A stretch of DNA of 63,546 bases, the filler included, from Sphaeroforma arctica JP610 (lineage: Eukaryota): NCBI RefSeq assembly GCF_001186125.1. It is 8 parts of 2 records of this genome, joined end to end, with 100 filler letters (N's around TTAATTAATTAA, not from the genome) between each part and the next. Parts side by side here need not be neighbours in the genome. Positions count along the whole stretch, not along the records: positions 19,678 to 29,223 come from NW_014040549.1; 7 more parts are not named here. One strand, given 5' to 3'. Made by a program: the position numbers and the translations under genes. This document shows, piece after piece, positions 9,077-48,600 of this stretch. The notes beneath the pieces were generated by a model. That model was not told the origin of the DNA. It did not search any database and was given only the letters and a program-made list of their open reading frames with translations. Positions within the stretch are counted from its first letter, which is position 1. Every line of letters starts with the position of its first letter.

Positions 9077-11404
9077 ATCTCTAGTGAATCCTCATACAAA
9101 CAAGTTGTACACCATGTGCAGAAAATATGTCAGCCAGACAGAACAAGGACGACATCGGCATATCACTGCTCTGAAGGAATCTGGCCAATATAGCCAAGCT
9201 AAAGCACTCGTCACTGTCACACTGTGAAGAGAGCTACGTATCACAACGGTACCTATCCTCAAGGTATCACACACTTGAATACTGCTACGACATCTGAAAA
9301 GTCGCTACAAATCCCGATCCAAAAAAAAAGTACGTACTTATCGATGAGTTTTTCATGTATACCCTATGACGGGTATCGCACGAACCAATATGTGCTTGGT
9401 CTCGGCGCATCGAAATATTCCTCTTTGAGTTCTACTGCAAGGTACTACTTTTCAACCCAAGGTATAACAATATATCTTGATTGATGGTCTCTCTCCTGCA
9501 GACATATCTCAGGCCCTTGATGTACATATTATGCCGGTCCTCCCCTTATTAACATTAGATAATGGCGGGGAATCACAAACCCTGAGTCTGTCAACGTAAA
9601 TCTGGTTTCCCAAGTTGCACAGTAGACTATACCTCCTCCTGAGCCGACAAACCAGGATATTGTGTATATGATATGGTACTTAAGAGTAACTTTTCTAACT
9701 GTTGTAGTAGAGGTACTCGAACTGGCTATGTCTCATTAGATTTTACCTAAGGCTGCGAAGAATGTTGTGCTCAAATACATACTGAAGCTGAATACACAGT
9801 AGACAGTCTTAAAACCCAACACCGTTTTCGCATTGGACACGTGGATACTGTGTGTACTAACAAGTGAATAACTGAACAACAGTTTTCCATACCCTGTCGA
9901 AACTGTTGCCTGTGTCACAATTGATGATATATTTAACCGCAGCACCACGGCTTCAGCCAACGACTCTAATCATTGATGGAAGAGCCATTGTTAATTACTT
10001 ACACGCATCAACTAAGCGACTATACACATAGGTTGAGTATGGCTAGTTCCCACTAAAGTTAACCAACAACCATATTACCATGATCAAATACCACGGGACT
10101 CTACCCAACCTAGGTATGGCATATCAGGACTTGACAATAACACGAGGCATTTTTCGCTCAGAATAATCTACAATTTAGTGGATGCTCACATACATGTCCT
10201 GGTGAAAGCATAGTACATGCCATCTATGTCTTGTGGGTTCGACATTAAAATCACCACGAAGCGTAGAGGATATTATATCTACTATACTGTACTTCAACAG
10301 TTATTAAATCAGCCACTAGTATAGAATCACAAGCCTGACGGCTCTATTTCATCTTCCAAATCCCCTTCTGATCCTTTGGTACCCCTATTGATCTAAGCAA
10401 ACCACCACATCATCGCACCATAACTTATGACGAGTTTCATAGCTAAACTACAATCCGAAATGTCAAATAGAAGCACGTCACACTAACTCTTACCTACCAA
10501 CGTAAAATCCAAAGCCTGGACACTGATTCGTCAGATATTTATTTCCTGTGTATCATTTCTTGTTTTTAACCTAGCATCGACTTATTTGCTTCCAACTCTA
10601 GTACGCAAGTACCTCGCTTTGTTTCTCTTGATGGAGATAATGTTGCCACGAATTGGCGTGACGAGGGTTTCGTGGAATGAATGGGAATATTTTTGGAAAC
10701 CTTATCTAGCCAGATGTACAAGAATATATCGTTGTCTCGTTTACAACATATCTATTCGGCTTTTTTTGCTGATAAGGGAAGGAATTGTAATATATATATA
10801 AATTCGTGACATACACGAAAATCCGTTCACAGGGAAAATATAAGCCGCATTACTACATGTATAGAGAAACTGATGCCATAATGGGAACAAGCGATTGATT
10901 CGGGAGAACATCAAAAGGGAGCTTCTTTGCATCAAATTATCAAGTAATATGAAAAGGAGAGGGAAATTTACCTCTTAATGGCCTCGACTGGTCTTGCCGG
11001 TATGTATGGGATTTCAGTGGCGCTTCGAATGAATATAGAACATTTTCGAAATGTGTCTCACAGAATAAATTGATACAAAGTCTGAATTCCATAGTTTAAT
11101 TCGCCCTGTCACGTCCCTGTCACAGATATCATTGCGTCCGTCACAGACGCTGATAACCATCCGACACCCATACAGACGAAACCTCGCCAGTAAAATGTGA
11201 CATGGAAACCAGTGAAAGTATGTTTTTCAGGCTGTATATCTCTGATAATTGAGTTGGTGTAAAGACTATATTTGAGTAACGTAATGATTATATTTATATT
11301 CAAAACTTGTGATTGCTGACACAATTGTACAGTACTTGGTATAAAGACAGGCTCTTCTTATATCGTTGCAGACAAGGTCGAAAACGAACAAAAACTGCAG
11401 TCGA

Positions 11405-11639
11405 TGTAGTCGGAATACACCAGGTAGGTTTACACTTAGGTTTATTACAGGTTATCAGAAGGATCTGATAAACTTTTACCGATTAATAGAATTCGCCCAT
11501 GACTCATCAACTAGAAAGTTATCAATTATAAAATCAGCATATGACTATGATTTTTAAGAATACTAGTAAAAGAACAACGTCTTTCTCCCTTTGGCGGGAG
11601 AACGTTGAGATACAGTAATCTTAACGTGTACTTACGACA
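11405..11639 (+). mobile_element. Family A LTR, probably a 5' LTR
   Basis: TGTAGTCGGAATACACCAGG...GTACTTACGACA; clearly similar to the LTR that follows a PPT at 36703-36956. Confidence 0.85.
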
Positions 11640-16426: not shown

Positions 16427-17134
16427 TTAAACGTTCTCGGTTACCGTGTGAGTTTTGGGCTTAGGTCCAGTAGGTCCGTGGTGGTCGACTGGATGTTTCT
16501 TTTGCTTCAATGTATTTAAAACATACGAAGGATGAGCAGTAAAGCTCGGGATAAATGCTGTTGGCGGGTAAGTTTTAACTTCTGCGCCTTCAGACGATGG
16601 AAACATGCTATCTCTCTCAGCTTGTGACTTATGTAGACGTTTACGCCATTTTCGATTAAAGACTTTTAAATAGTCTTGATTGTCAAAAGCGTCTGAAGTT
16701 AATTCAGCAATTGTACCGTCTATAAAGCGAGTACGATAGTATGTATATCCTCCTTTATCCGTTCTCCATAGAATATCTTTAAATTCGGAGCGGTCAAGAG
16801 GGACATTAGAATCATGTCTTCTTGCGAGTACAATCTCTGTAGTTGGAATACGAATTGTGCCTATATTAAGCGCACTAGAGCCATCGGGGCTATTTACCTC
16901 GTACGTTCCACTTTTAGTCTCTGCTACAGAGATTGTATATGGACCTATCCATTTAGATGTAAATACAGTAGCATCGGAATTACGTTGACGGATGTTAACT
17001 CTGTCACCGACCTGATACTCTGCTATCTTCTTGGTAGTATTCCAACGCTTTTGCCTTTTTAAAAAGACTATATTGCCTGTTTCGCGCAAGCAAGGATATA
17101 CAACAGTATAATACGTTGTACCTTTTCTAATCAT
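16427..17134 (-). pseudogene. Integrase C-terminus (GPY/F module) plus divergent chromodomain-like region and tail, frameshifted from the core
   Basis: YQVGDRV...KWIGPYTI; then EFKDILWRTDKGGYTYYRTRFIDG...DAFDNQDYL aligns by eye with the family A chromodomain. Confidence 0.75.
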
Positions 17135-17745
17135 GGTAACTCATGGTGATCAGGTTCGTCCTTGTTAAAGGGTATTTGTAACTCACTATATCTGCCACGA
17201 AAATAGTGAGCGGGTGTAGTTCCTGTAACCGGATCAACACACTCGTTCATTTGTGTTTGTACCCACTTAAGGTGGTACGGCCAATCATCTGCATCATCCA
17301 TTAATGCAGTACGCAAGAAGAACTTAAGTCTTCTATGGCGCGTTTCGTTCGCGCCTTGCGTTTGCGGCTTATATGGCACACCTCTCTTATGGCATATGCC
17401 TGATACGAGTACTAGCGATTCCATTACGTCATCGCAGACCTCACTACCGTTATCAGAACACCTAATACCTGGCCACCAGTGGTCAGCAAAGACTTGGCAA
17501 CATAATTCTGCCACGGTCTGCCTATTCTTACCCTTTAATGGATAGAGCAAGTTAAACCGTGACGCCACATCAAAGAAGTGGCATACGTAACGGTCGCCTG
17601 AGTGCTCGGACGTAGGCAGGTCAACCAGATCAATGATTACCCTGCGCCATGGAACATCTTCGGTCACACACTTAAGTGGTGCGCACCCATAGCGCTTGAT
17701 CTGATTGAGATCACAGTCTGTACATAACTGATATACTTTATCCAC
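17131..17745 (-). pseudogene. Retrotransposon DDE integrase core (rve)
   Basis: CTDC zinc-finger half, PWRRVIIDLV, SDNGSE, PYKPQTQGANE: D-D-E triad present. Confidence 0.9.
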
Positions 17746-18163
17746 TAAAGTTGCCAGCTTAGGGTGCGCTAACCCATTTCGCTTGGCATCTTTAAGTGCT
17801 TCTACTACGTTCTAGTGCTTCAGCTTATGATTTTGGTAAAACTGAACTTCCTGGCTGCAGGCCTCGGGTTTGATTTTTATGTTAGAGTACAGTGGTCCGA
17901 AGGTTGGATAAAGAAGCAATCAAAACTCTAGAACATGAAACAGGCGGTTGATCATTGAACACACTTCGAGACTATCAGCAACTCTTAATTTCTCCTATAG
18001 GCAGAGTAAAAGAAGAACAAAACGAGTACTCATTTACAAAATCAAACCAAACAAAATGATTAGCAATCATTAAGGAGCAAGGTGTATTCGAGCGCAACGA
18101 GATTTCGGGGACCCGCAAGCAGATCTCGGAGACAGCAACATGATTCAATGATAATTAGCTGCT

Positions 18164-21586: not shown

Positions 21587-21917
21587 TGTGCTGTGTGTAC
21601 TTGTGTTTAGACTGGTACAACCGAGTAGTATGGATTCCAGTTGATCTGATTGGCCAATGGGATTACTCCAATGGCCGCCCACGCGGCATACACCAACCTG
21701 TAGTTGGCACAAGCAGAATGTCATCAATATGGAGTGGCGAAGCTACAACGCATGGATTGACAGATATAAATGAATGATGCAACATATTCCGGATTATACC
21801 ATGCAGTCGAATGTGGAAAATTATTCGTATGACGGCTTTTGCACTACGCGTCGCTATAGGGCCAGGAATTACTGTGAACAGACCTCCAGCGGGCCGTTTG
21901 ATAGTCATATTGCCCAT

Positions 21918-22016
21918 TGGTCTGTTGTATTGTCTAATGGTCTGTCGTATTGTCTAATGGTCTGTCGTGTTGTCTAATGGACTGTCGTATTGTCTAATGG
22001 TCTGTCGTATTGTCTA
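21918..22016. repeat. Tandem repeat, 20 bp x5
   Basis: TGGTCTGTCGTATTGTCTAA unit. Confidence 0.9.
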
Positions 22017-22377
22017 GAACTGGCCACCAAGCCACTATCTTCTTATGGAGTGCCACATGACTATTAGAGGGACATCGATTACTGCATATGCATCAGCCAA
22101 ACTCGAAGTATATACTTCACTCGCTGCTACTATAACGTTACAACTGTACCACAGACGTGCTACACGTTTCCCGATGGTAATCGTGAACATAGCAGAGTAT
22201 AACAACTGATAAAATACAACAAACTTACACGGGCGAAATTTTCAGATCAACACGGGGTTTTTTTGTAAATACACTAGAGTTTCATTCCGCGGGTGGTATT
22301 AAAGATATCATCGCAGGTGAATGTGGCATGTCCAAAGTCATTCCTTCTGGGAGAGCTTTCATCTTATCTACCTCCCA

Positions 22378-22540
22378 ATAGCATATTTACTCTAGGCTAA
22401 GTAAGGTTTACTAAGCCCATTAGCATATTTATTCTAGGCTAAGAAATGTTTACTAAGCTCATTGGCATATTTATTCTAGGCTAAGATAGGTTTACTAAGC
22501 CCATTGGCATATTTATTCTAGGCTAAGCAAAGTTTACTTA
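22378..22540. repeat. Tandem repeat, about 42 bp x4
   Basis: GCATATTTATTCTAGGCTAAG...GTTTACTAAGCCCATT unit. Confidence 0.9.
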
Positions 22541-22653
22541 GCAAAGTCTACTAGGCTGTAGATGGAAATCTGCAACACTCAGTGCAGCTGACAAATATAA
22601 AGTCGACGTACTCCGATACATATCTGATGGCGTACATTTAACAAATGTATGTT

Positions 22654-23170
22654 CTCATGATACCCCTGTATGCTGGGCTTTGCACGTAGAGAGCGCATTA
22701 GCGTGTTATTGTCTACTCGTAACAAGCAACACGATATGAATAACTACTAGTACTATGTACTCATGCTACCACTGTATGCTGGGCTTTGCTTAGGAAGCGT
22801 ATTAGCCTGTTCTTGTCGAGTCGTAACAAGCAACACGATATGAGTAACTACTAGCACTATATACTCATGTTACCACCGTATGCTGGGTTTTGAGTCTAGA
22901 GTGCGTATTAGACTGTCCTAGTCTGCTCGTAACAAGCAACACGATACAAATAACTGCCAATACTATATTTCACGCTACCACTGTATGCTGGGCTTTGCAC
23001 CTACAGAGCGCATAGGCCTATTCTAGTCTACTAGTAACATTCAACACGGTTTGAATAACTACCAATACTCTATCTTATGCTACCCCTGTATCCTGGGCAT
23101 TGCGCCTAATGAGCGTATTAGCCTGTTCTGATCTATTCCTAACAAGCAACACGATAAATATAAGTAACTA
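22654..23170. repeat. Diverged tandem repeat, about 105 bp x5
   Basis: TGTATGCTGGGCTTTG-like anchor at 22667, 22773, 22877, 22982 and 23087; TAACAAGCAACACGAT recurs. Confidence 0.9.
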
Positions 23171-23277
23171 CTGTTGAGAATAAGTGAGGATTTGGTAATT
23201 TTTGTGAGAAAAAACACATCGTTAACTGTATTATACACTCGCACAAGCGACCCCCCTACTAATTATATATGCATCAA

Positions 23278-23424
23278 CATGACTTTGAGCTATACCCGAG
23301 ATAGGTTAGATACTATACATACATAAGCATGACTTTGAGCTATACCCGAGATAGGTTAGATACTATACATACATAAGCATGACTTTGAGCTATACCTGAG
23401 ATATGTTAGATACTATACATACAT
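23278..23424. repeat. Tandem repeat, 50 bp x3
   Basis: CATGACTTTGAGCTATACCCGAGATAGGTTAGATACTATACATACATAAG unit. Confidence 0.92.
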
Positions 23425-24388
23425 ATGTACACCTAGAAAAGTGCAGTCTGGATTCTAAGGTGCTTTGCGTGCACTTACATACTTTTTCTCAGCCAGCCTT
23501 TATAGATATCTGAACAACATGATATCAAGCGCAGAAAAGCGTATACACATACACACATATTGAAAGCACTAGCAGCTACCACATATACGCAGGTTCTTTA
23601 CCCGACTGATCGTACACATACATATCAAGAATGAGCATGCTATCGTATGGTGAATAGCTCTCAGGCACTCGCAACGCGTTGTATATGGTACAGATGGCTG
23701 AACTTAGCACGTACTATACTGTACTGTGTTGATGGATGCATAGTGGTATACTCTCTGCTCACCACATATATCACTTTCATCTGCTCTCGACTATGCGTGC
23801 ATATCTCTTTGCGTAGTGCGAAATGTATAAACGTGTCAGAACTGCAATATGCACACACCGTACACTTACTTCAACCACAGAGATCTATCGGTTAATTTGT
23901 ATAGGACGACTCTATCCAAACCTATTCATGTCCATCTCACCCACCTATATCATCAGATGAGCCCCATATCAGATCCTTGTGTGATCCTGCCATCTTTCAA
24001 TCTTCCTATGCAGAGCCGCTATGGTTCACCATCTCACAGGTAAGCGAATGTTGGGCCGCGAATGCGATAAGATGAAATAAACTGTATAGTATCCAGGGGA
24101 AAGGGGCGAGGGTATGTTCGTGATACAACCCTTTGTGTATGTCGTGCCACGGATTATATGTGCACATAATGCGGAATATATGTGCACACAATGCGGGTGT
24201 AGCTATGTTGCAATACAGTAACGAATAGGTTATTTTAAGCGATGTGTAGGTTCGGTGACAAATAGTATTTACTATGTACTGGCGGCAAAGCTGTAATGGA
24301 ACCCTGTAAATTCTTTTATTCTAAATATTTTAAAAACTCTATCGTGTTTAAAATTAGGTTTCGTTTGGTTTAAATATCGGATGCGATA

Positions 24389-24552
24389 CGATTGTAGGGT
24401 TTTAAGCCAATGTAGGGTTCATTACGGATTGTAGGGTTTTCGGGTTCATTATGGATTGACGATTGTAGGGTTTTAGGGTTCATTACGGATTGTCGATTGT
24501 AGGGTTTTAGGGTCCATTACGGACTGACGATTGTAGGGTTTTATGGTTCATT
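24389..24552. repeat. Minisatellite with telomere-like core
   Basis: GATTGTAGGGTTTTAGGGTTCATTACG-like units about five times. Confidence 0.8.
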
Positions 24553-25929: not shown

Positions 25930-26160
25930 TGTAGTAAGTAGTCGAGGATAAATGTATCTCAACGTACTCCCCTCGTACAAGGGGAGACGTTGTTCATTTA
26001 TTTAACTAAATCCTGTGACTATCATTTTGTCACGTGTTTTCCATTGTTCAGTTTTAACCTGATTGGATAAACCCGGTTCAAAATGTAGTCACTAATAAAA
26101 ACCCAAATATTAAATAAACCCTAATCCTAAATAACCCCTATCAGGGACTTCCTGACCACA
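25930..26160 (-). mobile_element. 3' LTR of the methyltransferase-bearing element (PPT at about 26162-26169)
   Basis: TG..CA termini directly after a G-tract; the 3' part (CAACGTCT...ACGTTGAGATACA...TACTTACTACA) matches the other family A LTRs. Confidence 0.8.
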
Positions 26161-26231
26161 ATCCCCCCCAAGCTGAAACACTATGAGTGTGCGAGCTTAA
26201 AAGATTGAAGGAATGCCCTGAAAGCGGTTGC

Positions 26232-26329
26232 GTGCTGGCATTTCTCCTTAGAGAGCTAGAGCATTGTGCTGGCATTTCTCCTCAGAGAGCTAGAGCATTG
26301 TGCTGGCATTTAACCTCCGAGAGCTAGAG
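26232..26329 (-). repeat. Family A 3' UTR tandem repeat, about 34 bp x3 (also at 36521-36619, +)
   Basis: CTCTAGCTCTC..AGG..AAATGCCAGCAC unit in both family A copies. Confidence 0.8.
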
Positions 26330-26436
26330 GGCTCGGTTATTTGTTCACCACTCGAGCTGGTGACTAAACGATAAGTACACGTAACTTAAAACTATCTATT
26401 AACTAAAAAAACAAAACAAAAAACTTTTTTTTCTAA

Positions 26437-26682
26437 CTATAACTGGTCTCTTCGGCGTTTCCGAGCGCGTGTCTGCGTATCCTTATGATATGCCACAATG
26501 TCATTAGCGTCGTCAAAGGCCTCGGCCGTTTTCCAGGTCGGCACCCCCTCACGCCAACGTACCAGGTATTCGAGCTTTCCTGTAACATTATTTGTCCTAT
26601 GTTTGATGATGTGACGGAATGCTGACCCGCCTTCTTGCCAAAGATCATCGTTCAACGGTAGATCTGTACTGCGGTGAACCAA
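26437..26682 (-). pseudogene. Integrase C-terminal chromodomain
   Basis: FRHIIKHR...GKLEYLVRWREGVPTW..AEAF matches the chromodomain pattern I..hR....eYLVkW....TW. Confidence 0.8.
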
Positions 26683-26769
26683 CCGTAGTAACTCAACCCG
26701 TACCGACTTCCCCTTAAACTCCTGGGGAGTGGACCCATCTCTATGTGTAAGGTCATAACCTTGACCGTT

Positions 26770-27890
26770 TCAGCCTTTAACTACATACGGGCCAAACAGT
26801 GGGTGCATGGCTTTGGAAGTTCGGCCCTCCAATTTTACCATTACTACATCGCCTGCATCAAAGTGGACTAAGTCATGGGCGTGTAGCCGGTCAAACGTTT
26901 TCGTCAATTTATCCGTATAAGTTGTAGTGATCTTATGCAGCGTAGGCAAAATTGTATCCTGGAGCTGGTCCAACCGTTGTGCCCACGTGTCATTAGTAAC
27001 CAGTTGTTGTTCTGGGACGTCATCGGTGAAGTCCGCAAACGGCACGTGTCGACGGCCGAAATAAACACTAAACGGCGCGCTCTTGTGCCGTCGGGAGATT
27101 CGGAAGTTCTGGTACAGCATTGTGAAAGGTAAACGTTCGTCCCATGCTTGGGGTACTGCCTCACAGACGATGCGTATCGACCGTGTTATCTCCTTGTGCC
27201 GACGTTCCGTTGCCCCCAACACCTGTGGTCTATAAGGTGGTGATACATTGTAAAGTATACTCACTTCCTTTACAATGAGGGCGACCATGTTGCTCGTAAA
27301 CTCATTACCCATGTCAGTATCTTGCGAGGGAATCCATGTTCGCCAAAGATTGACATCAGTATCCGCGCGGTGGTTTCCTTAGTCTTATCGGGTGTAGCAC
27401 GTAAGATCGAATAGCCGGAAGCCACATCTAACACATGGAGGACAAATTTATTCTGTCGTGTGGACGTGACCGGCATTGTAATATAATTCACCTGGATGTG
27501 ATCCCACGGGTGCCTTGCGTCAATGCTCATCATCGGATGGAAACCTTTACGTAGTGTATCTTGGCCCAAACACTGTCCACATTGTCGCTTAATCTCTGTT
27601 GCCAGTTCTAATGCCCCCGGCCAGACGTGCCCGTTCTGGTGTAACTGTTGGACCGTATCGGCAGCGCCGTGGTGGCCTTGCTCGTGCTGCGCCTGTGTGA
27701 GTTGTGTACGTCGTTGTTGCTTCATTTGTGTGGTATTCGCAAAGGCCGGTTGTGCCGCATCACTAGTTAATGCCACTGAGATCTCTCGTGACGTATCCAA
27801 ACATTGATAGTGTGGTGTGTATCGAGGTTCGGCATAGCCCAACCGTTGTGTAAAGCTCTCGGCTAGCTGGAAACCTGACGGCTGCCCCAC
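26770..27890 (-). pseudogene. Integrase (HHCC zinc finger, rve core, GPY motif), frameshifted near 27310
   Basis: HEQGH...CGQC; PWDHIQVNY; FGEHGFPRKILT/DMGNEF; PYRPQVLGATERRH; FGPYVV. Confidence 0.92.
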
Positions 27891-27898
27891 TCGTGCAA

Positions 27899-28290
27899 TT
27901 ACTGTGTGGCCCCATGGAGTCTTCTCACAGGCATACTTTGCATACTTAAAAATGTATGCGGGGTCCGTGGTACTAATACTGGTTCGGCTTGCAACAATGA
28001 TTTGAACAGGTCAAACCATGTGGCTCGAGGAGTCCAGGGTAGACACACTGTTGCTGTAGCCCCGTCTGCTTTGATCTTCCGAAGCATGCGGTGTATCAAC
28101 TTCCACGGCGGGTTCATCCACCCGTCGACTAACGCCCAGTCATGATCAAACGCGCCGTTGCGTTCGTTCTTTGCCCAAAACCTAGGAAGCTGTGTATTGC
28201 GGGGTGCTGCGAACACATCGATGTTGTTATGTCCAAAGATACGTTGTGCTTGTTCGAAGTAGCTGGTAAATAATTGCCAACAGTCTGCAT
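27899..28290 (-). CDS. DNA amino-methyltransferase domain (phage Dam/DIRS MT-like, probably N6-adenine) within pol
   Basis: DCWQL...FG..NIDVFAAPRNTQLPRF...GAFDHDW...WMNPPWKLIHRMLRKI...TVCLPW..RATWF: SAM-binding DxFA motif and catalytic NPPW motif. Confidence 0.88.
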
Positions 28291-29107
28291 ATAGGAACTC
28301 TGGCACGTCTGTTTCCGCAGTCCCTTCATGTATGCGACTCAGCATATTCGGTATGACATTCTTCTCCCCAGGTATATGTGAGATTGTGAAGTTGAAGGGC
28401 GCTATGATATGGTGCCACCTCTGTAGCATGGGATTTAGTTTCAGTTGGGTGTTCATATATACTAATGCCTTGTGATCCGTAAACACCGCGAAGCGTTGTC
28501 CGTCGAGATAGTCGCGGAAGTGCGTCAAACCGTAAACCAACGCCAGGAGTTCCTTCATCGGTGTTGCATAGTTCTGTTGAGCCTGATTGAGGGTCTTGCT
28601 GAAGAACATTAGGTAGTGCTTCTTGCCCTCCACCCACTGAAACAGTGCTCCTCCTAGTCCGTAGTCACTCGCATCCGTCTCGAGGTTGAAGGGGACGTCA
28701 TCCACCGGGAAGTGTAGTGCGACCGCGTTGACTGTTGCGTCCTTCATTGCTTTCCACGCGTCCGAATGTCGTTGTTCCCACCGCTCTCTAATTAGTTCAT
28801 TCGGCTTCAGCTTGCAAAATTCCCGTAGGGGCGCTACCACGTGTGCGAAATTGGGTAAGTGTTCGTACAAGAACTTAGCTAACCCCAACGCGGAGGCAAT
28901 GTTCTTGTACCGCTGATGTATTGGCCAGTTGAGTAGTTTCCCCTGCTTCCCAAAGTCGACGTCAATCCCTGCCGCCGAACCCTTCTTGCCTAGTATCATA
29001 ACATCTGCAATTACGAAGTGGCACTTCGCCGGATTCAGTTTGAAACTGTGGTACGTCAGTCTTCTGATCACATCCTTTACTGTAACGATGTGCTCGTCGC
29101 AATACAT
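28291..29107 (-). CDS. Reverse transcriptase C-terminus and Ty3/gypsy RNase H (ORF 27899-29107)
   Basis: [38 protein letters not shown]...[21 protein letters not shown]. Confidence 0.95.
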
Positions 29108-29604
29108 ATATATATGTATATATATATGTATATATATATATACATATATATGTATATATATTTGTATATATTTATATACATATATATATACATATATATA
29201 TGTATTGCGACGAGCACATCTATNNNNNNNNNNNNNNNNNNNNNNNNNNNNNNNNNNNNNNNNNNNNTTAATTAATTAANNNNNNNNNNNNNNNNNNNNN
29301 NNNNNNNNNNNNNNNNNNNNNNNTAAATTTAAAGTTACTCCTTCAAGAGGTGTGTACAGTAGGTACCTGTATATGTATTCATCTATATCCACGTATGTGT
29401 TTTAGTTGTCGGACGATACTGTTACATAGATAATTACGCGTATGTGAAGATATGAAGTAGAGGTGCATATAACATTGTACACGTATATGGGGTGTGAGAA
29501 GACATGATGCACGTCAGCCATCGTGTATACGCGTACATACAAATATACTTATGTTTGCGTATAGTGAACACATAAACGCATGTGTGTCGTTTTATACACG
29601 TGGT

Positions 29605-31167: not shown

Positions 31168-32545
31168 AGGTACTACAAGGTACAATCATTACACAGACAA
31201 TACAACGACTCTTTAGATGAGCGTGTAATAATCCCTGTCTATTGCAATGGAAATAAAATACTTGCGTTGATTGACTCTGGTTCAGAAATATCATGTATAT
31301 CAGATCGCTTTGCATTAATGAAAGATATCGAAAGGAGAACACAAACAACTCACCTCATTTTAGGTGATGATAAAACTGCTAAGTGTGATACCATGGCCAC
31401 AGATGTTAAAATATCCTTGGCCGATGATAGGAATATCACTACCCAAGCTGTGATAGTTAAGATGTCACAGAAGTACGACATTATAGTCGGAATGAGCGAT
31501 TTACTCACTCTAGGTATAACCGTAACTGGTCTACCAAATAACATAGATCCATTAAAGGATCGATCAGACGATAACTGTCTGAATCCATATAAGCCCCCGT
31601 CAGACACAGTCAAGGCATTAATACCTGACTTTGCGAACAAAATCATGGATCTGATTCTAGCTAATAGGAAGATAAAGATCGCAGATTGGGCAAAATTCCG
31701 CTTTAACGACGGATATGTCAGCCTTGACTTAACCAAGGTAGACTTTACACAGTTAAAGTGTCCCTCAAGGAAATATGTATCCTGGAGACACGAGGCTGTG
31801 GTAAAAGAACAAGTTGAGAATTGGCTAGCAGATGGAGTGATAGAAATTAACTATCAACAGACGCCAGTTAACCTGGCGCTGCTAGCCGTATACCAACATG
31901 ACTCTGACGGATCGTTTAAGAAAGTCAGAGTATGTTTAAATATGAGTCCAATAAATAAATTTTTGCCGACTCATAGCTTTCACTTACCTCGTATTGACGA
32001 GCTACTGCGAAGGATGGAAGGTGCTACAGTATTTACAACTATAGACCTTACACAAGGATACCATCAAATGACATGGTCATCTTTTCCAAGACTAAGGGCG
32101 AACACGCCGCATTAGTCAGACGAGTCCATAAGAGACTCAACGAGCAAAACTTCAAGATTAACGAGAAGAAATGCCACTAAGCAATGAGCGAAATACAGCA
32201 CTTAGGCTACCATATATCTGGGGAAGGTATTAAAATCGACCACGGTAAGGTAGAACACCTGTTAGATTGGCGAACACCAACTACAGGAAGAGGTGTTAAC
32301 AGCATGTGTGGGGTTGTAAACTTCTTTTCAGATGGAGTACCACACTTGGCTGATTACCTTAAACCTTTTGGACACTTAAGATGTCATAAAGGCAAACTAG
32401 GAGACTTGTGGACTAAAGAGTGTGATGATGCGTTTAAAGCGCTCAAACACGCAGTCCAACAAGCCCCAGTTATACAAGGTCCAGTCGATGGCGTGCCGTT
32501 TGAAATAGCAACGGACGCCTCCGACTTAGCCTTAGGAGGAGTTAT
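31168..32545 (+). pseudogene. Family B pol: aspartic protease, RT (YxDD region deleted), RNase H start
   Basis: ALIDSGSEIS; KKVRVCL; LPRIDELL; FTTIDLTQGYHQ; HLGYHIS; IATDASDLALGG. Confidence 0.92.
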
Positions 32546-32679
32546 CCGCCTGAGAAGCATTAACTATATGTTATGCTACTTAATGTTTTCGACCCGTTTT
32601 TACTTTCTCGCTTTTTGACCCATAAATAGCCTGAGTGAGCAACTTGCTTCTCCTGGGTCTCAAACTGGGGGGGGGGGGC

Positions 32680-33439: not shown

Positions 33440-36400
33440 ATGGAACGTGACACGAGATGGACACTTCTTGAGACCTTTGAGAATACACAAATCGCCGGGT
33501 TGGACAAGAGTTGGAGCCTTACATGGTTCCATAAAATATTATCTTACTTCAAAGCAGAGAAATCAACGCTGGACTATATACGCGACAACTTTGAACGGTT
33601 GAAGATGTGGACTCCACAATTACAACCCAAACAGATCTGCTCGCATGAGACGCAAGCCACAGTCGGCCCCGCGTTTCGCAAGCTGGCCAAGGGCCACAGT
33701 AAGAGCATGCACAGCCCCATCATGGAACAAATGACGCAGCTCGTGGGGGTGGGGCACGCGAACGGTGCCAAACTAATGCAGACTTTCAACAGAACTTATT
33801 AAGCCACTATATCGTACAATTGTTAGAGGAAGCACTCAATGGACGTACGTACGAACGCACTCGTCAATTACACCCGAAATGTCAATTAATGAAGACACAC
33901 GAGCTCCTGCAATTGTTGAGTCCCGACATTCAAGACACCCAGCAGCGTACTATGGCGCGTCTTCAGAACCGAACTAACAGGGAGAGACTTAAGACCAACG
34001 GGGCTCGTGACTATACTAACAGCCGTCCCAACCCTCAGACAGTGCGAAGACAGTCGCAGCATTGGGCACAGCGGCCCCAAACGACAACACCTACGATATG
34101 TGCCGGCTGTCAATCACAAGCACCACCGGGTATACGACATATTCCACGATGTCATCATTTTCGTGCAGCGCAGCCAGGGGTGACAATGGTCGGGCACGCC
34201 AATACGACCAGACCCGTCAGCCGCGAGATATACAACCTGCACACAGACCGGCAGCAACCCCGACCTCGGGACAAGGGTAGAACAATCCCCCGACACGGAA
34301 TTCACTACCACGCGACCAGCCTCTCATGTACAGGTGAACGCGATAACGCAGGATGTTAGTTTCGTACGACCACTAGAAGCAACCGAAGTACACATAAACA
34401 CAATACTCACAGAAAATTTTAATCACGCGACACCGGAACCAGACCATAACCACGGAGCATGGGAGTCGGTCACCGAACTCCAGTGAGATGTGAGGGTGTC
34501 TGAGACCGATATGAGCTTGACCTTTGTCAATACGATCAGTGCAGTTATGGCGATACAGGACCCATTGCTCTTACTTGATAGCCGAGTCTATATTCACGTA
34601 CAGGTCAAGGAGCGCACGTTCAAAGCGTTGATAAACACGGGGGCGAACAGAAGTTGAATATCACAGACATCCGCAACCCTCCTGGGCCGGCCAATAACTC
34701 CAGCACCACCTGGGTCATTCATCTACTTAGCTGACAAGACGGTACGAACTCTTCGACTGGGGACGACGGGAGTGTTACCCATTCGATATGGAACCAAAAT
34801 TATCGACGGATTACTTGCACCAATGAATATACTTGTGGGCATGGACATCATAGTGGATCAGAAAGGTTGGGCATATACAGAACTTGATGAGCTTCTCGAA
34901 CCCATCCCACGCCGACAAGCATCGAATACGACGGAGCCTGCCGATGCACACCAGCGGCTAGTACTAGACTTAGAGGCGAATGCGATGATTGTCCACAACG
35001 CGAGATGTCGTCTTGAAGGGAGTGAAGTCACCATTCCAGTTACACATGAACAGGCTATGCACATGCGTAGGTCTACGCGCAGCTTCGTATCCGACCAATG
35101 GCCACCCTGTGTCGACGAGCAATTGCGGAAGTGGTTGGCGGATCTAGAGAAGACAAAATGTACCACGCCTACGAAAGTGAACCTCTATCTTCTAGCGGTC
35201 CCGATGCTCGATGTGGAAGGAAACGTAAAGAAGGTGAGAGTGTGCTTAGACATGCGCGCCGTAAACGCGTTTATCCCTGGTGACCAGTTTATTCCAAAGG
35301 TCAAAGAACGTATATCTCGGCTAAAGAGTAAGAAGTACTACACAACTTTGAATATCACTGCAGTATACCATAGGCTGCCGATCCATCCAGACTCACAATA
35401 CTTTTGCAGTTTCACGCATGAGCGTTATCAGTACTCGTTCACATCAGCACCTTTCGGACTCCATGTACTCACGCAGCAGTTCTAACGTACACTGAGCACG
35501 TTACTCGACGGACTACCGGTCCATCACTAGCGACGATTATGACGAACATATTAAGACGGTGCATAAATTTATCCAATGCTTAACTTACCATAGCTTTAAG
35601 CTCAACCCCGCCAAGTGCCACTTTGCTATCGCCGAAGTTATGATCCTAGGGAAGAAGGTGTCTGCGCAAGGCATCGACATTGACCATGAGAAACAAGCAA
35701 AGCTACTCGACTGGCCTACCCCAACTACGGTACAATCACATAGCTTCTGCCTTAGGTTTGGTGACTACCTCCATGAGCATCTCCCCAACTTAGCGGACAC
35801 GGTCGCACCCTTACGAGAATTTTGCAATTTAAAACTGAAGAAGGAGTTATTAGCTTTGGTGTTTGGGCTTATACATTTCAGGGAACACCTTGATGGGCAA
35901 CGTTTTGCAGTCTTTACATATCACAAGGCCCTAGTGTATTTGAACACTCAGCTTAAACTTAATCCGATGTCACAGAGATGGCACCATATCATCGCACCGT
36001 TCAACTTCATACCAGGGAAGTCGAACGTGTTAACAGACATGTTGAGCAATAGTGATGGTGCGGTCTGAGGGTAGAATGACTAAGGCGATGCAGCCGCAGT
36101 TTGGACCACATGGGGTTAAGGCTAGAGTCCGTCAGCGATATGAGTTGGCTAATAGGGACGGCTCCGCCCATCCAGAATTCAAAGACAAACCAGTACGTGT
36201 TGAACTCCTCCGCTTAGTACATCGCAGCACAGACTCACCACCTAATGATGAGTTGTGGGCGGAAAGCGAAGTTGAGTTTCGCCATATTAGTACACCCCGT
36301 ACGAATGATGATACTGGGAAGATGGAATACTTGGTGAAATGGCGCAAAGGAGACCCTACGTGGGAAACAGCGGATGCATTTAACGATGCCAACGACATAG

Positions 36401-36956
36401 TGGGCTACCATAAGGCCTCGCAGACACGGTCACGTAAACGCCAAGGTACACAACTCTAATACTTTATACTAGAGTTTATCTACTAGATACGACGGTGCGC
36501 TCGAGCCGTGTACTTCGAGCCCTCTAGCTCTCAGATATTAAATGCCAGCACACTGCTCTAGCTCTCAGAGGAAAGATGCCAGCACCTTGCTCTAGTTCTC
36601 AGATGATAAATGCCAGCAACCAACTTTATATGTGTATTCCTTCTATGATCTCTAAACCTGGCACACTACTGTTTTGTAGTGCTTCAGCTTTTTTGGGGGG
36701 GATGTTGAGGTCGGAATACACCAGGTAGGGTCAAACTTAGGTATATTAGAGTTTATCAGAAGGATCTGATAAACTTAGTTTTACCGATTAATAGAATCGG
36801 CACATGACTCATCAATTAGAAAGTCATCGATTATAAAATCGGCACATGACTCATTAATTAGAGGAGTCAGTGATTTTTAAAATTGCTATTAAAAAAATAA
36901 CGTCTCGCTCGAGGAAGAACGTTGAGATACAAATACCGTAGCGTGTACTCACGACA
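33440..36956 (+). mobile_element. Second family A Ty3/gypsy copy, decayed: partial gag, protease, RT, partial RH, integrase tail/chromodomain, PPT, LTR
   Basis: [51 protein letters not shown]. Protein segments are close to those of the 26-29 kb copy. Deleted from the end of RH to the GPY region. Confidence 0.9.
36703..36956 (+). mobile_element. Family A 3' LTR
   Basis: Follows GGGGGGGA; TG...ACGACA; similar to 11405-11639. Confidence 0.85.
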
Positions 36957-42675: not shown

Positions 42676-45600
42676 CTATTCGAGCGCACTTAGAATCAGA
42701 TACACAGCCCAGGCTCCGGGGTCAGGAATACCCTTGAGATCGTGTGTGTCTCCCAAGTACGCGGCCCGACCATCGGTAGCGGTTGACATTTCTTTTGTCG
42801 ATTCCGCTCCAGCTTTTGCTGCCTGTAAGTGTGCGCGTGCGGATTACGCAAATATTGGGGTTGAAAACTTGTGTGGTATTGGCTGAAGGGTATGGGCTCT
42901 CATAGTGAATAGCGCAGAAGTGATGAACCGCATGTCCTTTTTAGAATTGAGCATACGGTGCTGTGAGATTTAGATGTTATACAAATGTGATCATAGATGA
43001 AAACATGATCCTCTCCACACATGTATACTCATCCACTTTTTTCAGCTAGCATTAACCGTGATACAACAAGCACATGTTCACCGCAGAGGCACCACACCAC
43101 TCGTGCACTATCTCCATATTCAAAACTGCATGCAAGATGTATTATTCACGAACCTTAGCCATGCCATTGATTCCTTCCGAAGCGGCCTCAGACGCAGGGA
43201 CGAGGGCATCCACCAGTGTGCGAGACCCCACCTTTGCCCGACCGTGTTTTGTGATGCTATCGCAACCAGCTGCGAAATAGGAATATATACTTGTCAATAC
43301 AAATGGTTGGATATGATACAAGCATACACTTTATTGTTTAACTGTATTTAGCTACATTGTTCTGGGATTGTCATGTTTTAATCCCAAAAAATATCAATAC
43401 ACCAAATTTAACGAAGATAGACATCACAACCACCGTACATCCATTGTGCGCGTCCTAAATTCGACTGGCTAAAATGACATCCCTGCAATTTCACTTACAC
43501 AATACAAACCTCAAGTGTCCTAAGATCATGCTTGTGAGCGGTGAGAACGCATATAAACTATGTTCTAAAACGATACCTAGAAGATAGCGTGAACATGAAT
43601 ACCTTGAAACCCTGTGGCGAGTGCACCATCCGATCCATTCTCCTGAATAGCTGCAGCAGCAGCACTGAAGAAAATAGCAGACAGCACTCCAATCGTACCA
43701 CCCACAGATCGACTTATGGTTGTTGCTACACCCTGATTACGTTGCCAAAGTGAATGAGTACACTATAGCCTTTCGCGTACTTATAAAGCTTTTATAAGAA
43801 TTAACTGATACAAGGATAGCGGTATATATTGTACAAAAATACAAATATTTGTAGCTCAATGCAGTTTCTTGATACGAACTGGATTGCATTTGCATTGGAT
43901 GTTTTATGTATATACATGCAGACGTACTATCTATATGAAGTGGTCAAAATTCACGCCGGCTCTTGTGTGTGAAGTGCTGTAGAATAACTTTAACTTGGCA
44001 TGGAATTAGCAGAAACAAACTGTCATGCCATCATATAGCAAATGTAAATTCATTGCATGTAATATATTCATAATATTACATATAATTGTATTGAAGTAGA
44101 ACGCAATGTATTAAAAAAAAACAAACTATACATATACATACATACACGCCAGAATACCAATATTCACTACATACGTTACACAAAGCCGCCGGACCGTCCA
44201 AATACGAGTCCAAATCCTTGAGAACTGCTTTTGCACCTTTGCTGATACTTTCGCCACAATCTCCATCTCCGCACTGTCGAAGTGATAACACATGTGTGAG
44301 AACGTTTGCCAGTTAACAAGCTCCTGATACAGTCTTCGAAACATATTTTACCTGACTAGTAACATTAAAATTATGGATTGTTAAATTAGGATTTGTGTGC
44401 CACTATCATCACGTGATGTCGATCGGGAGATATGGTGTAATAGCTGGGGAGGAAAAGTCAGCAAAATATCCATGACACAAGTCAAATAGGCTCGTTACGA
44501 CCAAAGAAAAAACGAAGCACATACCATTCCAGACACACTGCGACGCGAGTTTTCGCCACTTGCATCTGATCCGAAAGTCACTAACAGAGACCCAAAAACT
44601 AATTACATTTGTCCATAATTTGAGCATTACCAACACACTGGCTCCCTTTGCGTGTTTCACCTAACATTCATCTAGTGCGAAAGTCGATAAGAGGGGCCTA
44701 GAGTCTAATTACATCTGACAACAATTTAAAGTACATAAATATATGTATATATAAATATATATAACTGCAAATTTTTAAAGGTATTTATGTGCACTTACGA
44801 TTGTATCCCACTTTGTGAGCTGGGCCTCGTTCTCGATCAAGCTGTGCATAGCACGCTCTATCTTCGCCTTAATGTCGCTGTTGAGCTTATCTGCTGACGA
44901 ATTCTCCGCCGCAAACTCGGACGCCTTGTGTTCGTGCAGTGCCTTCGCGTTGGAGCTTTGGAATTTCTTATACTGTCGGACTGTGCGTAGCGCAAAATAA
45001 TTAATTTCGGTAACGAATCGGAATGTTATAGTAGATATATATATATAACATTTAAGCACCCAAAATAACCTTACCCTTTTTCGGGGTTGACTGATTCTGC
45101 CGTCACACAAGTCCAGCTTAATGTCTAATGTGCTCAAAACTATGAGAGGACAACAAGTCCGGCATATTTGTTTAGTGATTTGTCTGTCATAGCTACATGA
45201 TATACAGACGTACCACCAAATACATAAGTGCTAACTAAATAGAAGTACACACACGAGCTATCCACTCCTTGACTTAGCTTCAAGTGCTTGCGCTCGCAGA
45301 GCGAGTTGATACAGAAGATACACCTATCGAGACAAGCAACTAGCACGGCCTCTACCATTTGTGACAACTGGGAAAAAAAACACTCGGGGAGTTCACCTAG
45401 CTTTAGATACACACATACCATTGGATGTGAACAGATACAAACAATATTAGACATACCAGGTACCCATCCAACGGCATTCGTTTCAGCTTCTAGCGCTTTC
45501 GTCCACGTGGGATCACAGATACGCAGTAAACTGATACTAAAGCCACACATATCCAGACTGGTGACTAGCGCACCCTCTACCACGTGACTGACAGAAATAG

Positions 45601-48600
45601 AGGCGTCCGTTAGCTGCCTCGATACCTCACCGAAAAGATATGTCATCTCTACGCGCGACACTGACCCCAAATTGTTGATCAGCAGGCAGAAATCCTAAGA
45701 ATAGTGAAGGTATGTACACACGTTATCTTGATCGCAAATCATTAACTCGGGAGTTTGAATTTAGAACACAATTTCAAAAGAGACTCACACATCTAAATAA
45801 ATCACAAAATACTATTTAGATTTAACAGACGTACAAATTTAGTAGTACAACTCAGCAGAGAAAACGAACTCAATTACAGATTGTTAATCCATACCAATAA
45901 AGACCGTAAAGAAAATCCCAGATGATATGGCTTGTAAATATATAGTGGTAATTATGAAGAATATGCTAATTATTATTCCTCAATACTTCAGCAGCCTCGC
46001 TACACCGCTCACTAATTCCTTTGCTGTAGCTCAAAGTACCACAACATAACATATCGTAATAAAATATAGAACAACAAACAGACACAAGCGGACATCGACA
46101 CCACACATACCAAAAATAAAACGTACATACGCCGCCAAGTAACATGGGAATGAGCAAAGAACACCGTCAGTACCATGCTTCTTGACCACCTTTTTCAGTA
46201 GCGACTGGAGCAGACCAGATCAAAATCTGGATCTCGTGTTCAGCATAGGGATAAACAATCAAAGGTACTATCATAATTGGGGTTTGACTACCGACCCATG
46301 TTCACAAACGTACATGTATAAGCGTATCCGCAACGAAACAACATACGTCCTTGCTATCGCCTACTACTTTCAATAGCGGCGTCAGCATACGCGCCACTAT
46401 ATCCTTGGCTGATTCTAAATCGACTGTCTCTCTCCCGGCTTCGCCATGAATACCAAGACCTACAACAAGAAATCAATTCCAATAAGGGACATAGATTTTG
46501 TGTAAATATACACGCACAATTTACGTTCGTGTCTCGCAGTCTAGGCTAACATTCATATACTGGACGTTCATAAAATACAACATACCAACCCAACTATTTG
46601 ATGCAATATATTGAGGCATGTTCAAACACATAATCGATCGGAACTACGAAGCAAAACGTTAAACAATATTACATTTACTAATATGTGCATGAATACCTAC
46701 CGAGTTCGTACACATTGCCATCTAAGCGTTCGTCTCTTGTATCACGCCCAGGGATGGTGCAGGTGGTTAAGGCAGCACCAATGGACCGAACTGAATTGGC
46801 AGCTTTTTCCGCATTCGCTTTCACTTCATCGAGAGAAGCTGTCACAGGTGTACAATGAATTTTCGCGTGAAAAAGTGTTGCAGTTCTAAACATCAACTAC
46901 AAACGCATCTCATATAAGATGACTGGATGGCCGGGAGCGACCTACCAAAGTTGTGTACGTGTGAGCGATGCACAATGACTACAGTCGATACGATTATGAG
47001 CGACGATGGACATAATTAATAACCACAGTCGGTAGCGCTGGGTCTGACCACAGATGACTTCCTTCAGATACAGCTACATACTCGCGTCCATAAGTCATAC
47101 CAACAACCACAGGCCTATCACATATGATCGACAAATTATAAGTTCACACTACAACCTTACTAGTTCGACATCATTTAGATAGGCATACATATAAAAAACA
47201 GGTACATTCGTACATCCATACCTCCTGTGGCTGCGTAGTAGGATGCCACCTTGTGCACCAAACATGTGCCAGCGATACCACGTGGTTGCGGCACACCGTC
47301 TAACGCCACATCGTCTTCAACAGTCACCACCTGCGCAAAGTGGTCAGTTAAGTTATCAACCTGGTACATAATATATAAGTGCAGTGAACTAGAGCGGAAC
47401 ACTGTACTGGTGTGTATCACTATTACACAACAGCTATTAAAAGACTCAGCATTTTGATGTTCTGTTTATTTGATTGAAATATTCGTTACATGCTTGTATT
47501 TCAACTCTTTTTCTTTCCTGTCAATCTGGCGTACACTGTAGGCATACATACGAACCCTACTCTACACATGGGGTCAAGAAAAAAACAAAACAAGATGGAC
47601 TATTGCCAATAAAAGCATAAGATAAGCCTGCCCTTATTTTTAGTGCGGAATCGTACTGATTAAACATCTGAAGCACGTAGGATATGCTAGCATCGCATCG
47701 AAGTGAGACACGCCTTTTTACACGATTCCTGCCCTATATAGCAACAAGTTTAATTTAACCGATACTAATATTTCTGCACACACCTCTACTTTTTTCTGGT
47801 ATAAAGCACGGGCTCGCTCAGCGGCCAAACCAAAGTTCAGACGGTCGCCAGTGTAGTTCTTGACAATCAGCAAGCACCCTGATTTTATGTGATTTATTGA
47901 ATATACACGCACCTAATTAGCCTATAACCATGCAACTCTAATTTTCTGTAGTGTCGATTAACTGACCTGCAAACGCCATACATATGAAATACGTTTGGAA
48001 AGTTCTGCTCCGGAATTTTACAACCAGCTTGTAATTAAAATGGGACGTATATGTACAAAAATGTCTTTGTTATCAATTTGTGCACCTTGAGTTCATTACA
48101 ACCAGCACGCACACACATGCACACATGGAATGCCATAACAAAGAAATTGCAATAAATCCTGCACATGCAGATCGAGGGTCTCATTTTCGATAGGTATATA
48201 CTGAAGCGCATGTGGTGGTGACGTAAACAGAATTTTCATTAGCGTGCTATCACTTGTGAGGTTTGGATATACTCTGTCAGACCTGTGGCCATAGATTGAC
48301 AATCAGCACGTATATTTTGATAGACGCAAGAACGTACATCAATATTCGTCTCTATTCTTGGGTATACATCAAGATGCTCATTTTGTACCTCGCCAGTACA
48401 CATGGAAACTAATTGACTTGTACGTCGACTTCATCTGCAACCATTTGGAAAATCAACTGCAAGACTGCTAACACGTTTGTATGCGAAAGCATAATCGAGC
48501 ACAAATACAGTATCTTCAACTGTACACATTGAATTCGTATACATCATCACTCTGGTACGGATATTTGCTTTGCCACTCTATCACACCAATAATATTTTCA

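What the first reader, a model, noticed from the sequence alone, without database searches (positions are those of the whole stretch)
25930..29107. Gypsy/chromovirus-type LTR retrotransposon with a DNA amino-methyltransferase (Dam-like) between RNase H and integrase
Seen: ORF 27899-29107 runs without a stop from RT through RNase H into a domain with IDVFAA (about 28205-28222) and WMNPPW (about 28103-28120). A single frameshift near 27940 restores KYACEKTPWGHTVIARV, which reads straight into the HHCC-DDE integrase. GPY, chromodomain, PPT and a TG..CA LTR follow on the same contig. Established: a phage Dam-like methylase after RNase H is a hallmark of DIRS1-like elements, which integrate with a tyrosine recombinase; canonical Ty3/gypsy pol is PR-RT-RH-INT with no methylase. 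Inference: this lineage captured the methylase as part of its polyprotein, combining a DNA-mark writer with a chromatin reader. It could methylate its own cDNA or insertion site, for example to mimic host marks or evade restriction or silencing. The NPPW and DxFA motifs look intact although this copy's integrase is decayed. NPPW enzymes can make 6mA or 4mC. I cannot confirm that the architecture is unreported.
Basis: partly seen in the sequence, partly recalled or inferred. Interest (0 to 1): 0.92.

Follow-up and report, generated by a model that had tools for sequence, protein, structure and literature searches.

The report
Dead methyltransferase-carrying gypsy retrotransposon copy
This is a broken copy of a gypsy-type jumping gene whose enzyme chain holds a domain predicted to be an adenine methyltransferase between RNase H and integrase; the arrangement is real and conserved across copies, but this kind of element was described in a 2026 preprint, likely from the same group of protists.

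Summary
The architecture is real: RT end, RNase H, a Dam-like domain (Pfam PF05869, above cut-off), integrase, GPY, a divergent chromodomain, PPT and a 208-bp TG..CA LTR. RT/RNase H groups with LTR elements, away from DIRS-like ones (100/100). Identical contigs from several studies argue against misassembly, and differences between copies in the methyltransferase region are mostly silent (26 of 36; 10.7 expected).

It is not new. A May 2026 bioRxiv preprint describes 'DAM-LTRs', including an ichthyosporean lineage (Sphaeroforma, Abeoforma). The closest named relatives of this domain come from those two genera. The scan also found this class in other genomes.

This copy is dead. One frameshift cuts the methyltransferase's conserved C-terminal motif, a second lies inside integrase, a catalytic Asp reads Asn, a stop precedes the chromodomain, and the 5' half is missing.

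Two small additions: (1) this element and an Abeoforma DAM-LTR carry a divergent chromodomain, although the preprint says that lineage has none; it lacks two of three methyl-lysine cage aromatics. (2) The closest solved fold is PCIF1/CAPAM, not T4 Dam, so the substrate may be RNA or the RNA:DNA hybrid.

The parts
25953..26160 (-). 3' LTR, 208 bp, TG...CA
   Evidence: Ends in CGTTGAGATACA like the LTRs ending at 36931 and 11614. Contigs of other copies match 25934-26160 and diverge outside it.
26163..26169 (-). Polypurine tract (G7) two bases before the LTR
   Evidence: Sequence. A G7 run also precedes the LTR of the second copy, at 36695.
26440..26769 (-). Integrase tail with a divergent chromodomain (core about 26482-26619); first and third cage aromatics absent by alignment
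   Evidence: Pfam Chromo E 0.0066, below cut-off. 26 of 27 PDB hits at E<=10 are chromodomain proteins. ESM Atlas 0.93 to Chromo clusters. Local profile iE 4.4e-6.
26770..26772 (-). Premature stop between GPY and the chromodomain, private to this copy among the contigs laid
   Evidence: All contigs covering 26770 in the 4 runs laid differ there.
26773..27318 (-). Integrase core C-terminal part (second D, E) and GPY motif
   Evidence: 37% identical to P0032 978-1155, E 2e-39; motif places.
27312..27887 (-). Linker, HHCC zinc finger and integrase core N-terminal part; first catalytic D reads N; frame change near 27312-27318
   Evidence: Integrase_H2C2 E 0.0015 and rve E 0.0017, both below cut-off.
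27888..27944 (-). C-terminal motif of the methyltransferase (KYACEKTPWGHTVIARV), out of frame with the rest of the domain in this copy
   Evidence: Matches GxTPWxxTxxxRI/V, which follows TFL in LTR-type relatives. Related contigs carry a one-base indel at 27945.
27945..28300 (-). Dam-like (PF05869) N6-adenine methyltransferase-type domain; DVFAA 28205-28219, NPPW 28103-28114
   Evidence: AlphaFold2 model pLDDT 91.8. Best solved match PCIF1, Z 9.1, rmsd 2.4, 118 aligned.
28337..29098 (-). RT C-terminal part (after YxDD) and gypsy-type RNase H
   Evidence: 43% identical to P0032; tree.
29099..29323 (.). (TA)n microsatellite with an inverted repeat of the RT end, then an assembly gap; the 5' half of the element (5' LTR, gag, protease, RT start) is missing here

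Best explanation
This is a dead, 5'-truncated copy of a multi-copy Ty3/gypsy DAM-LTR retrotransposon family, likely from an ichthyosporean protist such as Sphaeroforma, whose intact members likely use the Dam-like domain to put N6-methyladenine on their own nucleic acid during reverse transcription. Shown here: the domain order, the gypsy-type RT/RNase H, many related copies, and silent-biased divergence in the methyltransferase region. Inferred: intact members make one polyprotein PR-RT-RH-MT-IN-chromodomain, as P0032, P0039 and P0055 do. The SAM-dependent domain would sit in the particle beside RT and methylate adenines on the RNA:DNA hybrid or nascent cDNA. After integration the host enzyme AMT1 would maintain the mark at ApT, so that the new copy looks like an active gene and stays transcribed. 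The cage-less chromodomain would help integrase hold chromatin without reading methyl-lysine in the HP1 manner. Identity as a DAM-LTR: about 0.92. The confidence given is for the methylation mechanism.
For: Domain order and Dam hit above cut-off. 8 of 30 scanned relatives have RT-RNaseH-Dam-integrase in one open frame by Pfam, 3 of them with Chromo. The RT/RH tree splits the query plus LTR elements from 20 DIRS-like rows at 100/100. Identical contigs bridge the MT-IN junction in runs of several studies, and diverged contigs (about 80-89% alike) bridge it too. 26 of 36 scored differences are silent against 10.7 +/- 2.7 expected, reached in 0 of 20,000 simulations. DxFA and NPPW are kept. The closest relative is Sphaeroforma arctica SARC_07150 at 66%, then Abeoforma. 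The preprint reports more 6mA and more expression on DAM-LTRs than on other LTRs in S. arctica and A. whisleri, and proposes this model. [quoted passage not shown]
Against: No activity is shown for any retroelement Dam, and the preprint's E. coli assay was negative. 6mA on DAM-LTRs could come from host AMT1 after transcription. Iyer et al. 2016 call DIRS-type domains likely inactive (passage). A deep contig of a related subfamily lacks 25 nt over the NPPW motif in X2 and X17, and another copy in this window lacks the domain and most of integrase, so defective copies are common. The host taxon rests on protein relatives only. The Dam tree does not resolve the query's link to the Abeoforma elements (AU test p 0.63, not rejected, not shown, group chosen after seeing the tree).
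Confidence: 0.45

Rival explanations
1. The domain is a PCIF1-like RNA methyltransferase. It marks the element's own genomic RNA (cap-adjacent or internal adenosine) or its primer tRNA to aid stability, translation, packaging or reverse transcription, and DNA 6mA on these elements is a by-product of their transcription.
For: PCIF1/CAPAM is the best match in three searches: PDB profile search, weak E 0.83; Foldseek ranks 1-5 and 7, E about 0.2, probability 0.85-0.96; VIA-align Z 9.1, the only one of 48,161 chains at Z>=8, against 6.9 for T4 Dam. Iyer et al. place DIRS methyltransferases in the PCIF1 clade. The negative E. coli DNA assay fits.
Against: A shared fold shows no substrate. The domain is about 140 aa and lacks the extra domains that make PCIF1 482-494 aa. 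Pfam groups it with phage DNA methylases. The preprint's tree derives it from prokaryotic Dam.
Confidence: 0.25
2. The domain is kept as a non-catalytic nucleic-acid- or SAM-binding module, or as a structural spacer between RNase H and integrase.
For: No activity was detected in E. coli. Iyer et al. judged DIRS copies likely inactive. Earlier scan notes report Rozella elements that keep the domain but lost the motif (not checked here).
Against: The query keeps DxFA and NPPW, and D, F, A and PP are conserved in at least 90% of 58 aligned relatives.
Confidence: 0.18
3. The domain methylates host DNA at the insertion site in trans, guided by the chromodomain reading a histone mark, or it makes 4mC.
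For: The methyltransferase adjoins integrase in Pol and could stay joined to it. A chromodomain is present. NPP(Y/F/W) enzymes can make 4mC (recalled).
Against: The cage aromatics at HP1 positions 24 and 48 are missing by alignment, as in group II chromodomains, whose ligand is unclear (passages). The preprint reports 6mA, and I saw no 4mC data in its main text.
Confidence: 0.1
4. The domain is a DIRS fragment nested in an ordinary gypsy copy, or a misassembly.
For: The element ends at a microsatellite and an assembly gap. Most of the 150 listed relatives of the domain look DIRS-like.
Against: A 2,094-nt contig is identical across RT-RH-MT-IN (X2; it may be the assembly's own source), and 702-nt identical contigs in other studies bridge MT-IN. 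Diverged copies carry the same junctions. Intact polyproteins of the same order exist. RT/RH is not DIRS-like.
Confidence: 0.02

Closest known systems
DAM-LTR retrotransposons, Ichthyosporean lineage (Fernandez-Moreno et al., bioRxiv 10.64898/2026.05.21.726589; whole main text read, supplements not seen)
   Same: Ty3/gypsy RT and integrase with a PF05869 Dam domain that keeps NPP. The closest named relatives of the domain are from S. arctica (66%) and A. whisleri (39-42%), two of the three species named for that lineage.
   Different: The preprint says this lineage lacks chromodomains. This element, its sister copy and A. whisleri P0042 have a divergent one that falls below Pfam's cut-off. I could not check whether this very family is in their tables.
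Chlorophyta DAM-chromovirus-like clade (same preprint)
   Different: Green-algal hosts. No named chlorophyte sequence was among the 20 proteins I looked up, so a link was not tested. The chromodomain here lacks two cage aromatics.
DIRS1-like retrotransposons (Piednoel et al. 2011, PMC3266345; passages read)
   Same: RT-RH-MT order and a homologous MT domain.
   Different: DDE integrase, PPT and a TG..CA LTR in place of a tyrosine recombinase and inverted repeats; RT/RH falls outside the DIRS-like group.
PCIF1/CAPAM cap-specific m6Am methyltransferase (PDB 6IRX and related)
   Same: Closest solved fold (Z 9.1, rmsd 2.4, 118 aligned); the FAS motif region aligns with DxFA.
   Different: 14% identity; only the small catalytic core is shared; the substrate of the retroelement domain is untested.
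Group II chromodomains of plant chromoviruses (Novikov et al. 2012, PMC3350952; passages read)
   Same: The first and third cage aromatics are missing, the central Trp is kept.
   Different: The paper reports group II from plants only. Here it is likely a separate loss; shared descent was not tested.

Membership tests
DAM-LTR retrotransposon | Pfam Dam (PF05869) domain, E below 1e-5 | tested here: met
   E 1e-6, 29 bits against cut-off 28.1
DAM-LTR retrotransposon | RT groups with LTR (Ty3/gypsy) elements, not DIRS | tested here: met
   100/100 split from 20 DIRS-like rows on the RT C-terminus plus RNase H. DIRS labels are mine, by a recalled RNase H motif and a terminal Dam; no named reference RTs were included.
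DAM-LTR retrotransposon | DDE integrase, PPT and LTR in the same element | tested here: met
   integrase is broken in this copy
DAM-LTR retrotransposon | Asn-Pro-Pro catalytic triplet followed by an aromatic residue | tested here: met
   NPPW at 28103-28114
DAM-LTR retrotransposon | Raised 6mA on insertions; AMT1 in the host | not testable with these tools
   No genome is held for this window and no methylation data are available
Ichthyosporean DAM-LTR lineage | Dam domain in one clade with the Sphaeroforma, Abeoforma and Pirum elements | tested here: inconclusive
   Sister to S. arctica SARC_07150 at 100/95; the link to Abeoforma rows is unresolved and not rejected (p-AU 0.63)
Ichthyosporean DAM-LTR lineage | No chromodomain (as the preprint describes it) | tested here: not met
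   A divergent chromodomain is present. It is also in Abeoforma P0042, so the published description likely reflects a detection threshold.
Chromovirus | Chromodomain after GPY at the integrase C-terminus | tested here: met
Chromovirus | RT inside the chromovirus clade | not tested
   No named chromovirus RTs were at hand, and most of RT is missing in this copy
Group I (methyl-lysine-reading) chromodomain | Three cage aromatics (HP1 Y24, W45, Y48) | tested here: not met
   Only the Trp is kept in both window copies, by alignment to CBX7 and P0039
DIRS1-like element | Tyrosine recombinase and inverted terminal repeats; DIRS-type RT | tested here: not met
   Integrase and an LTR follow the domain, no recombinase hit among the element's ORFs, RT/RH outside the DIRS-like group
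EpiLTR (Dam + DNMT + chromodomain) | Cytosine DNMT appended to pol | tested here: not met
   Pol ends at 26437 after the chromodomain, 270 nt before the PPT, and no DNMT hit was found

The most novel reading that the evidence does not exclude
The 'Dam' of DAM-LTRs is a minimal PCIF1-like enzyme that works inside the retroelement particle on the element's RNA or RNA:DNA hybrid and not on double-stranded DNA, which would explain the failed E. coli assay. In ichthyosporeans it is paired with an overlooked cage-less chromodomain that steers insertion by something other than methyl-lysine.
Probability: 0.25. Interest if true: 0.65.

Novelty: new member of a known kind. Interest (0 to 1): 0.3.

Why it matters
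As an architecture it adds little, since DAM-LTRs are in print and likely in this host group. It offers two testable refinements to that recent class: ichthyosporean members have a chromodomain that standard thresholds miss, and the fold points to PCIF1, which suggests which substrates to assay after the negative result on double-stranded DNA. The silent-biased divergence is independent support that the domain matters to the element.

Tried and rejected
- No whole genome is held for this window, so there is no copy count, no AMT1 search and no dN/dS over full-length copies.
- The word-index search for longer proteins with the methyltransferase region found nothing (0 of 46 candidates). The full HMMER search then found 1,710 relatives, so that blank meant nothing.
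- The single-sequence fold was poor (pLDDT 50) and was not used.
- The first RT/RH tree held only one DIRS-like row because of a wrong motif filter and was discarded (redone).
- The Dam tree is poorly resolved (11 of 45 inner branches starred). It does not show the donor or the number of captures.
- A PDB profile search gave nothing significant (best E 0.83), and Foldseek had no match at E<=0.001.
- No RNA holder listed. Runs guessed to be RNA hold the stretch, but their type is a guess and says nothing on expression.
- No CpG or ApT depletion stands out in the element; uninformative.
- No earlier scan note matches this sequence or genome.
- Pfam was not run on the second copy's tail (one search failed); a local profile was used.
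- The host taxon was not confirmed from host genes.
- Five literature searches found the preprint as the only listed paper on LTR elements with this domain. The words PCIF1, CAPAM and copia do not occur in its main text.
Full report
Observation. The window is eukaryotic: intron-broken host genes for Dak1, a mitochondrial carrier and emp24 lie in it. The frame 27899-29107 on the minus strand is open. Pfam finds RT_RNaseH (E 4.5e-31) and Dam PF05869 (E 1e-6, 29 bits, cut-off 28.1, residues 274-365) but no RVT_1, because the ORF starts in a (TA)n microsatellite beside an assembly gap and holds only the part of RT after YxDD. DVFAA is at 28205-28219 and NPPW at 28103-28114. Downstream lie an HHCC finger and integrase core (both below Pfam cut-off; 32-37% identical to P0032), GPY at 26785-26793, a chromodomain-like tail, a G7 PPT and a 208-bp LTR at 25953-26160, whose end matches two other LTRs in the window.

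State of this copy. In LTR-type relatives the methyltransferase continues after TFL with a GxTPWxxTxxxRI/V segment. Here that segment is in the next frame, so the frame change near 27945 cuts the methyltransferase itself. A second frame change lies near 27312-27318, the first integrase Asp reads Asn, and a stop at 26770-26772 separates GPY from the chromodomain.

Not a misassembly or a single nested fragment. Of 24 runs listed, 18 hold half or more of the sampled words. In the 4 runs, a 2,094-nt contig matches 26964-29057 without a difference (X2, possibly the source of the assembly), and 702-nt identical contigs in X3 and X11, from other studies, bridge the methyltransferase-integrase junction. 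Diverged contigs bridge it as well: X2 record 13 (217 differences over 27862-29084) and X17 record 2 (102 differences and one gap over 27862-28378). Related contigs carry a one-base indel at 27945. I scored the 36 differences between 27949 and 28334 among the 40 rows shown (70 more were not shown; the tool keeps the best supported). 26 are silent, against 10.7 +/- 2.7 expected and reached in 0 of 20,000 simulations. This is a rough sign of purifying selection, not a dN/dS.

Relatives. A full HMMER search found 1,710 proteins at E<=0.001. I scanned 29 of the 150 listed (the top 21 and 8 long ones) plus P0025 with Pfam. 8 of these 30 have RT-RNaseH-Dam-integrase in one frame and 3 also have Chromo. 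Of 20 proteins looked up, 4 carry an organism name: the top hit is Sphaeroforma arctica SARC_07150 (66% identity) and three are Abeoforma whisleri. The host is therefore likely Sphaeroforma or a close ichthyosporean; this is an inference. In an RT/RNase H tree of 41 rows the query falls with LTR elements, apart from 20 DIRS-like rows at 100/100 (20 of the 47 rows that passed my recalled motif filter; the tool warned of long branches and an unsettled bootstrap). The Dam tree joins the query to SARC_07150 (100/95) and is otherwise weak. A clade with the Abeoforma elements is not rejected and not shown.

Known already. Fernandez-Moreno et al. (bioRxiv 10.64898/2026.05.21.726589; whole main text read; supplements not seen, and they may list this family) define DAM-LTRs in five lineages, one of them in Pirum, Abeoforma and S. 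arctica and one with chromodomains in green algae. They report more 6mA and more expression on DAM-LTRs in S. arctica and A. whisleri, no activity in Dam-deficient E. coli, and a model in which the enzyme marks RNA-DNA intermediates and host AMT1 maintains the mark. Earlier scan notes found the class in other genomes; I had the preprint before reading them.

Refinement 1, the chromodomain. The preprint says the ichthyosporean lineage lacks chromodomains. The tail here scores only E 0.0066 in Pfam, but 26 of 27 PDB hits at E<=10 are chromodomain proteins (best E 7.5e-4), the ESM Atlas gives 0.93 with 187 shared features, and a profile from three Pfam-verified retroelement chromodomains finds it at iE 4.4e-6 among 179 sequences. 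The Abeoforma DAM-LTR P0042 scores 0.94 in the Atlas and iE 2.6e-4. Each test is modest, but they agree. By alignment only the central Trp of the three cage aromatics is kept, as in group II chromodomains (PMC3350952, passages), so reading methyl-lysine in the HP1 manner is unlikely.

Refinement 2, the fold. A model from 58 aligned sequences has pLDDT 91.8. Its best solved match is the cap-specific adenosine methyltransferase PCIF1/CAPAM (Z 9.1, rmsd 2.4, 118 aligned; the only chain of 48,161 at Z>=8), ahead of T4 Dam (Z 6.9). Foldseek ranks PCIF1 first, without significance. Iyer et al. 2016 placed DIRS methyltransferases in the PCIF1 clade and thought them inactive (PMC4738411, passages), so the link is not new, though the preprint's main text does not mention it. 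PCIF1 prefers ssRNA, then RNA/DNA hybrid, ssDNA and dsDNA (PMC9178792, abstract). This fits activity on reverse-transcription intermediates or on RNA, and could explain the negative E. coli test.

Mechanism. Most likely (0.45), intact members carry the enzyme into the particle, mark adenines on their own hybrid or cDNA, and rely on host AMT1 to keep the new copy in active-gene chromatin. Rivals are RNA methylation (0.25), a non-catalytic role (0.18), marking of the target site guided by the chromodomain or 4mC (0.10), and an artefact (0.02). Against the main reading: no activity has been shown, and defective derivatives are common. A deep contig lacking 25 nt over NPPW appears in X2 and X17, while X6 holds the same subfamily's variants over that place without a gap.

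Verdict. A real, well-supported but decayed member of a class described in 2026, with two modest refinements. Interest 0.3.

Noticed in passing
window 34517-36931 (+): Second copy of the same family (63-76% amino-acid identity in RT/RH, 67% in the tail) with protease-RT-RH joined almost directly to GPY-chromodomain, PPT and LTR. An internal deletion removed the methyltransferase and most of integrase.
   Followed up: partly
window 16541-17829 (-) and 31312-32546 (+): Fragments of a second gypsy family, 49-63% identical to P0043, which is itself an RT-RH-Dam-integrase polyprotein. Likely a second DAM-LTR family in this genome; its Dam part is not in the window.
   Followed up: partly
window 10510-10700 (+): Decayed stretch with DLFASN..QVPRF, weakly matching the Dam profile (iE 1.5e-4 in a six-frame scan); possibly an old DIRS-type remnant.
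   Followed up: partly
window 11405-11614 (+): LTR like that of the second copy, without a PPT before it; a solo or 5' LTR.
   Followed up: no
protein P0048 (JGI/IMG, 522 aa): A Dam domain with NPPF followed by RVT_2, the Ty1/copia reverse transcriptase (E 2e-65). The word copia is absent from the preprint's main text, though its Chloro-Ochrophyta clade has Dam between integrase and RT. One short contig only.
   Followed up: partly
proteins P0059 and P0146: Long polyproteins with Dam before RT; P0059 has protease, an Exo_endo_phos domain, Dam, RT, RNase H and integrase in that order.
   Followed up: no
window 28106-28130 (runs X2 and X17): The deepest related contig in these two runs lacks 25 nt over the NPPW motif and has further small deletions near the RNase H end; possibly an amplified defective derivative.
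   Followed up: partly
window 21884-24552: Several short tandem arrays (units of 20, 42, 105, 50 and 34 nt) downstream of the element.
   Followed up: no
window 45143-47465, 55452-55736, 62504-63284 (-): Host gene exons: Dak1, mitochondrial carrier, emp24/GOLD.
   Followed up: no
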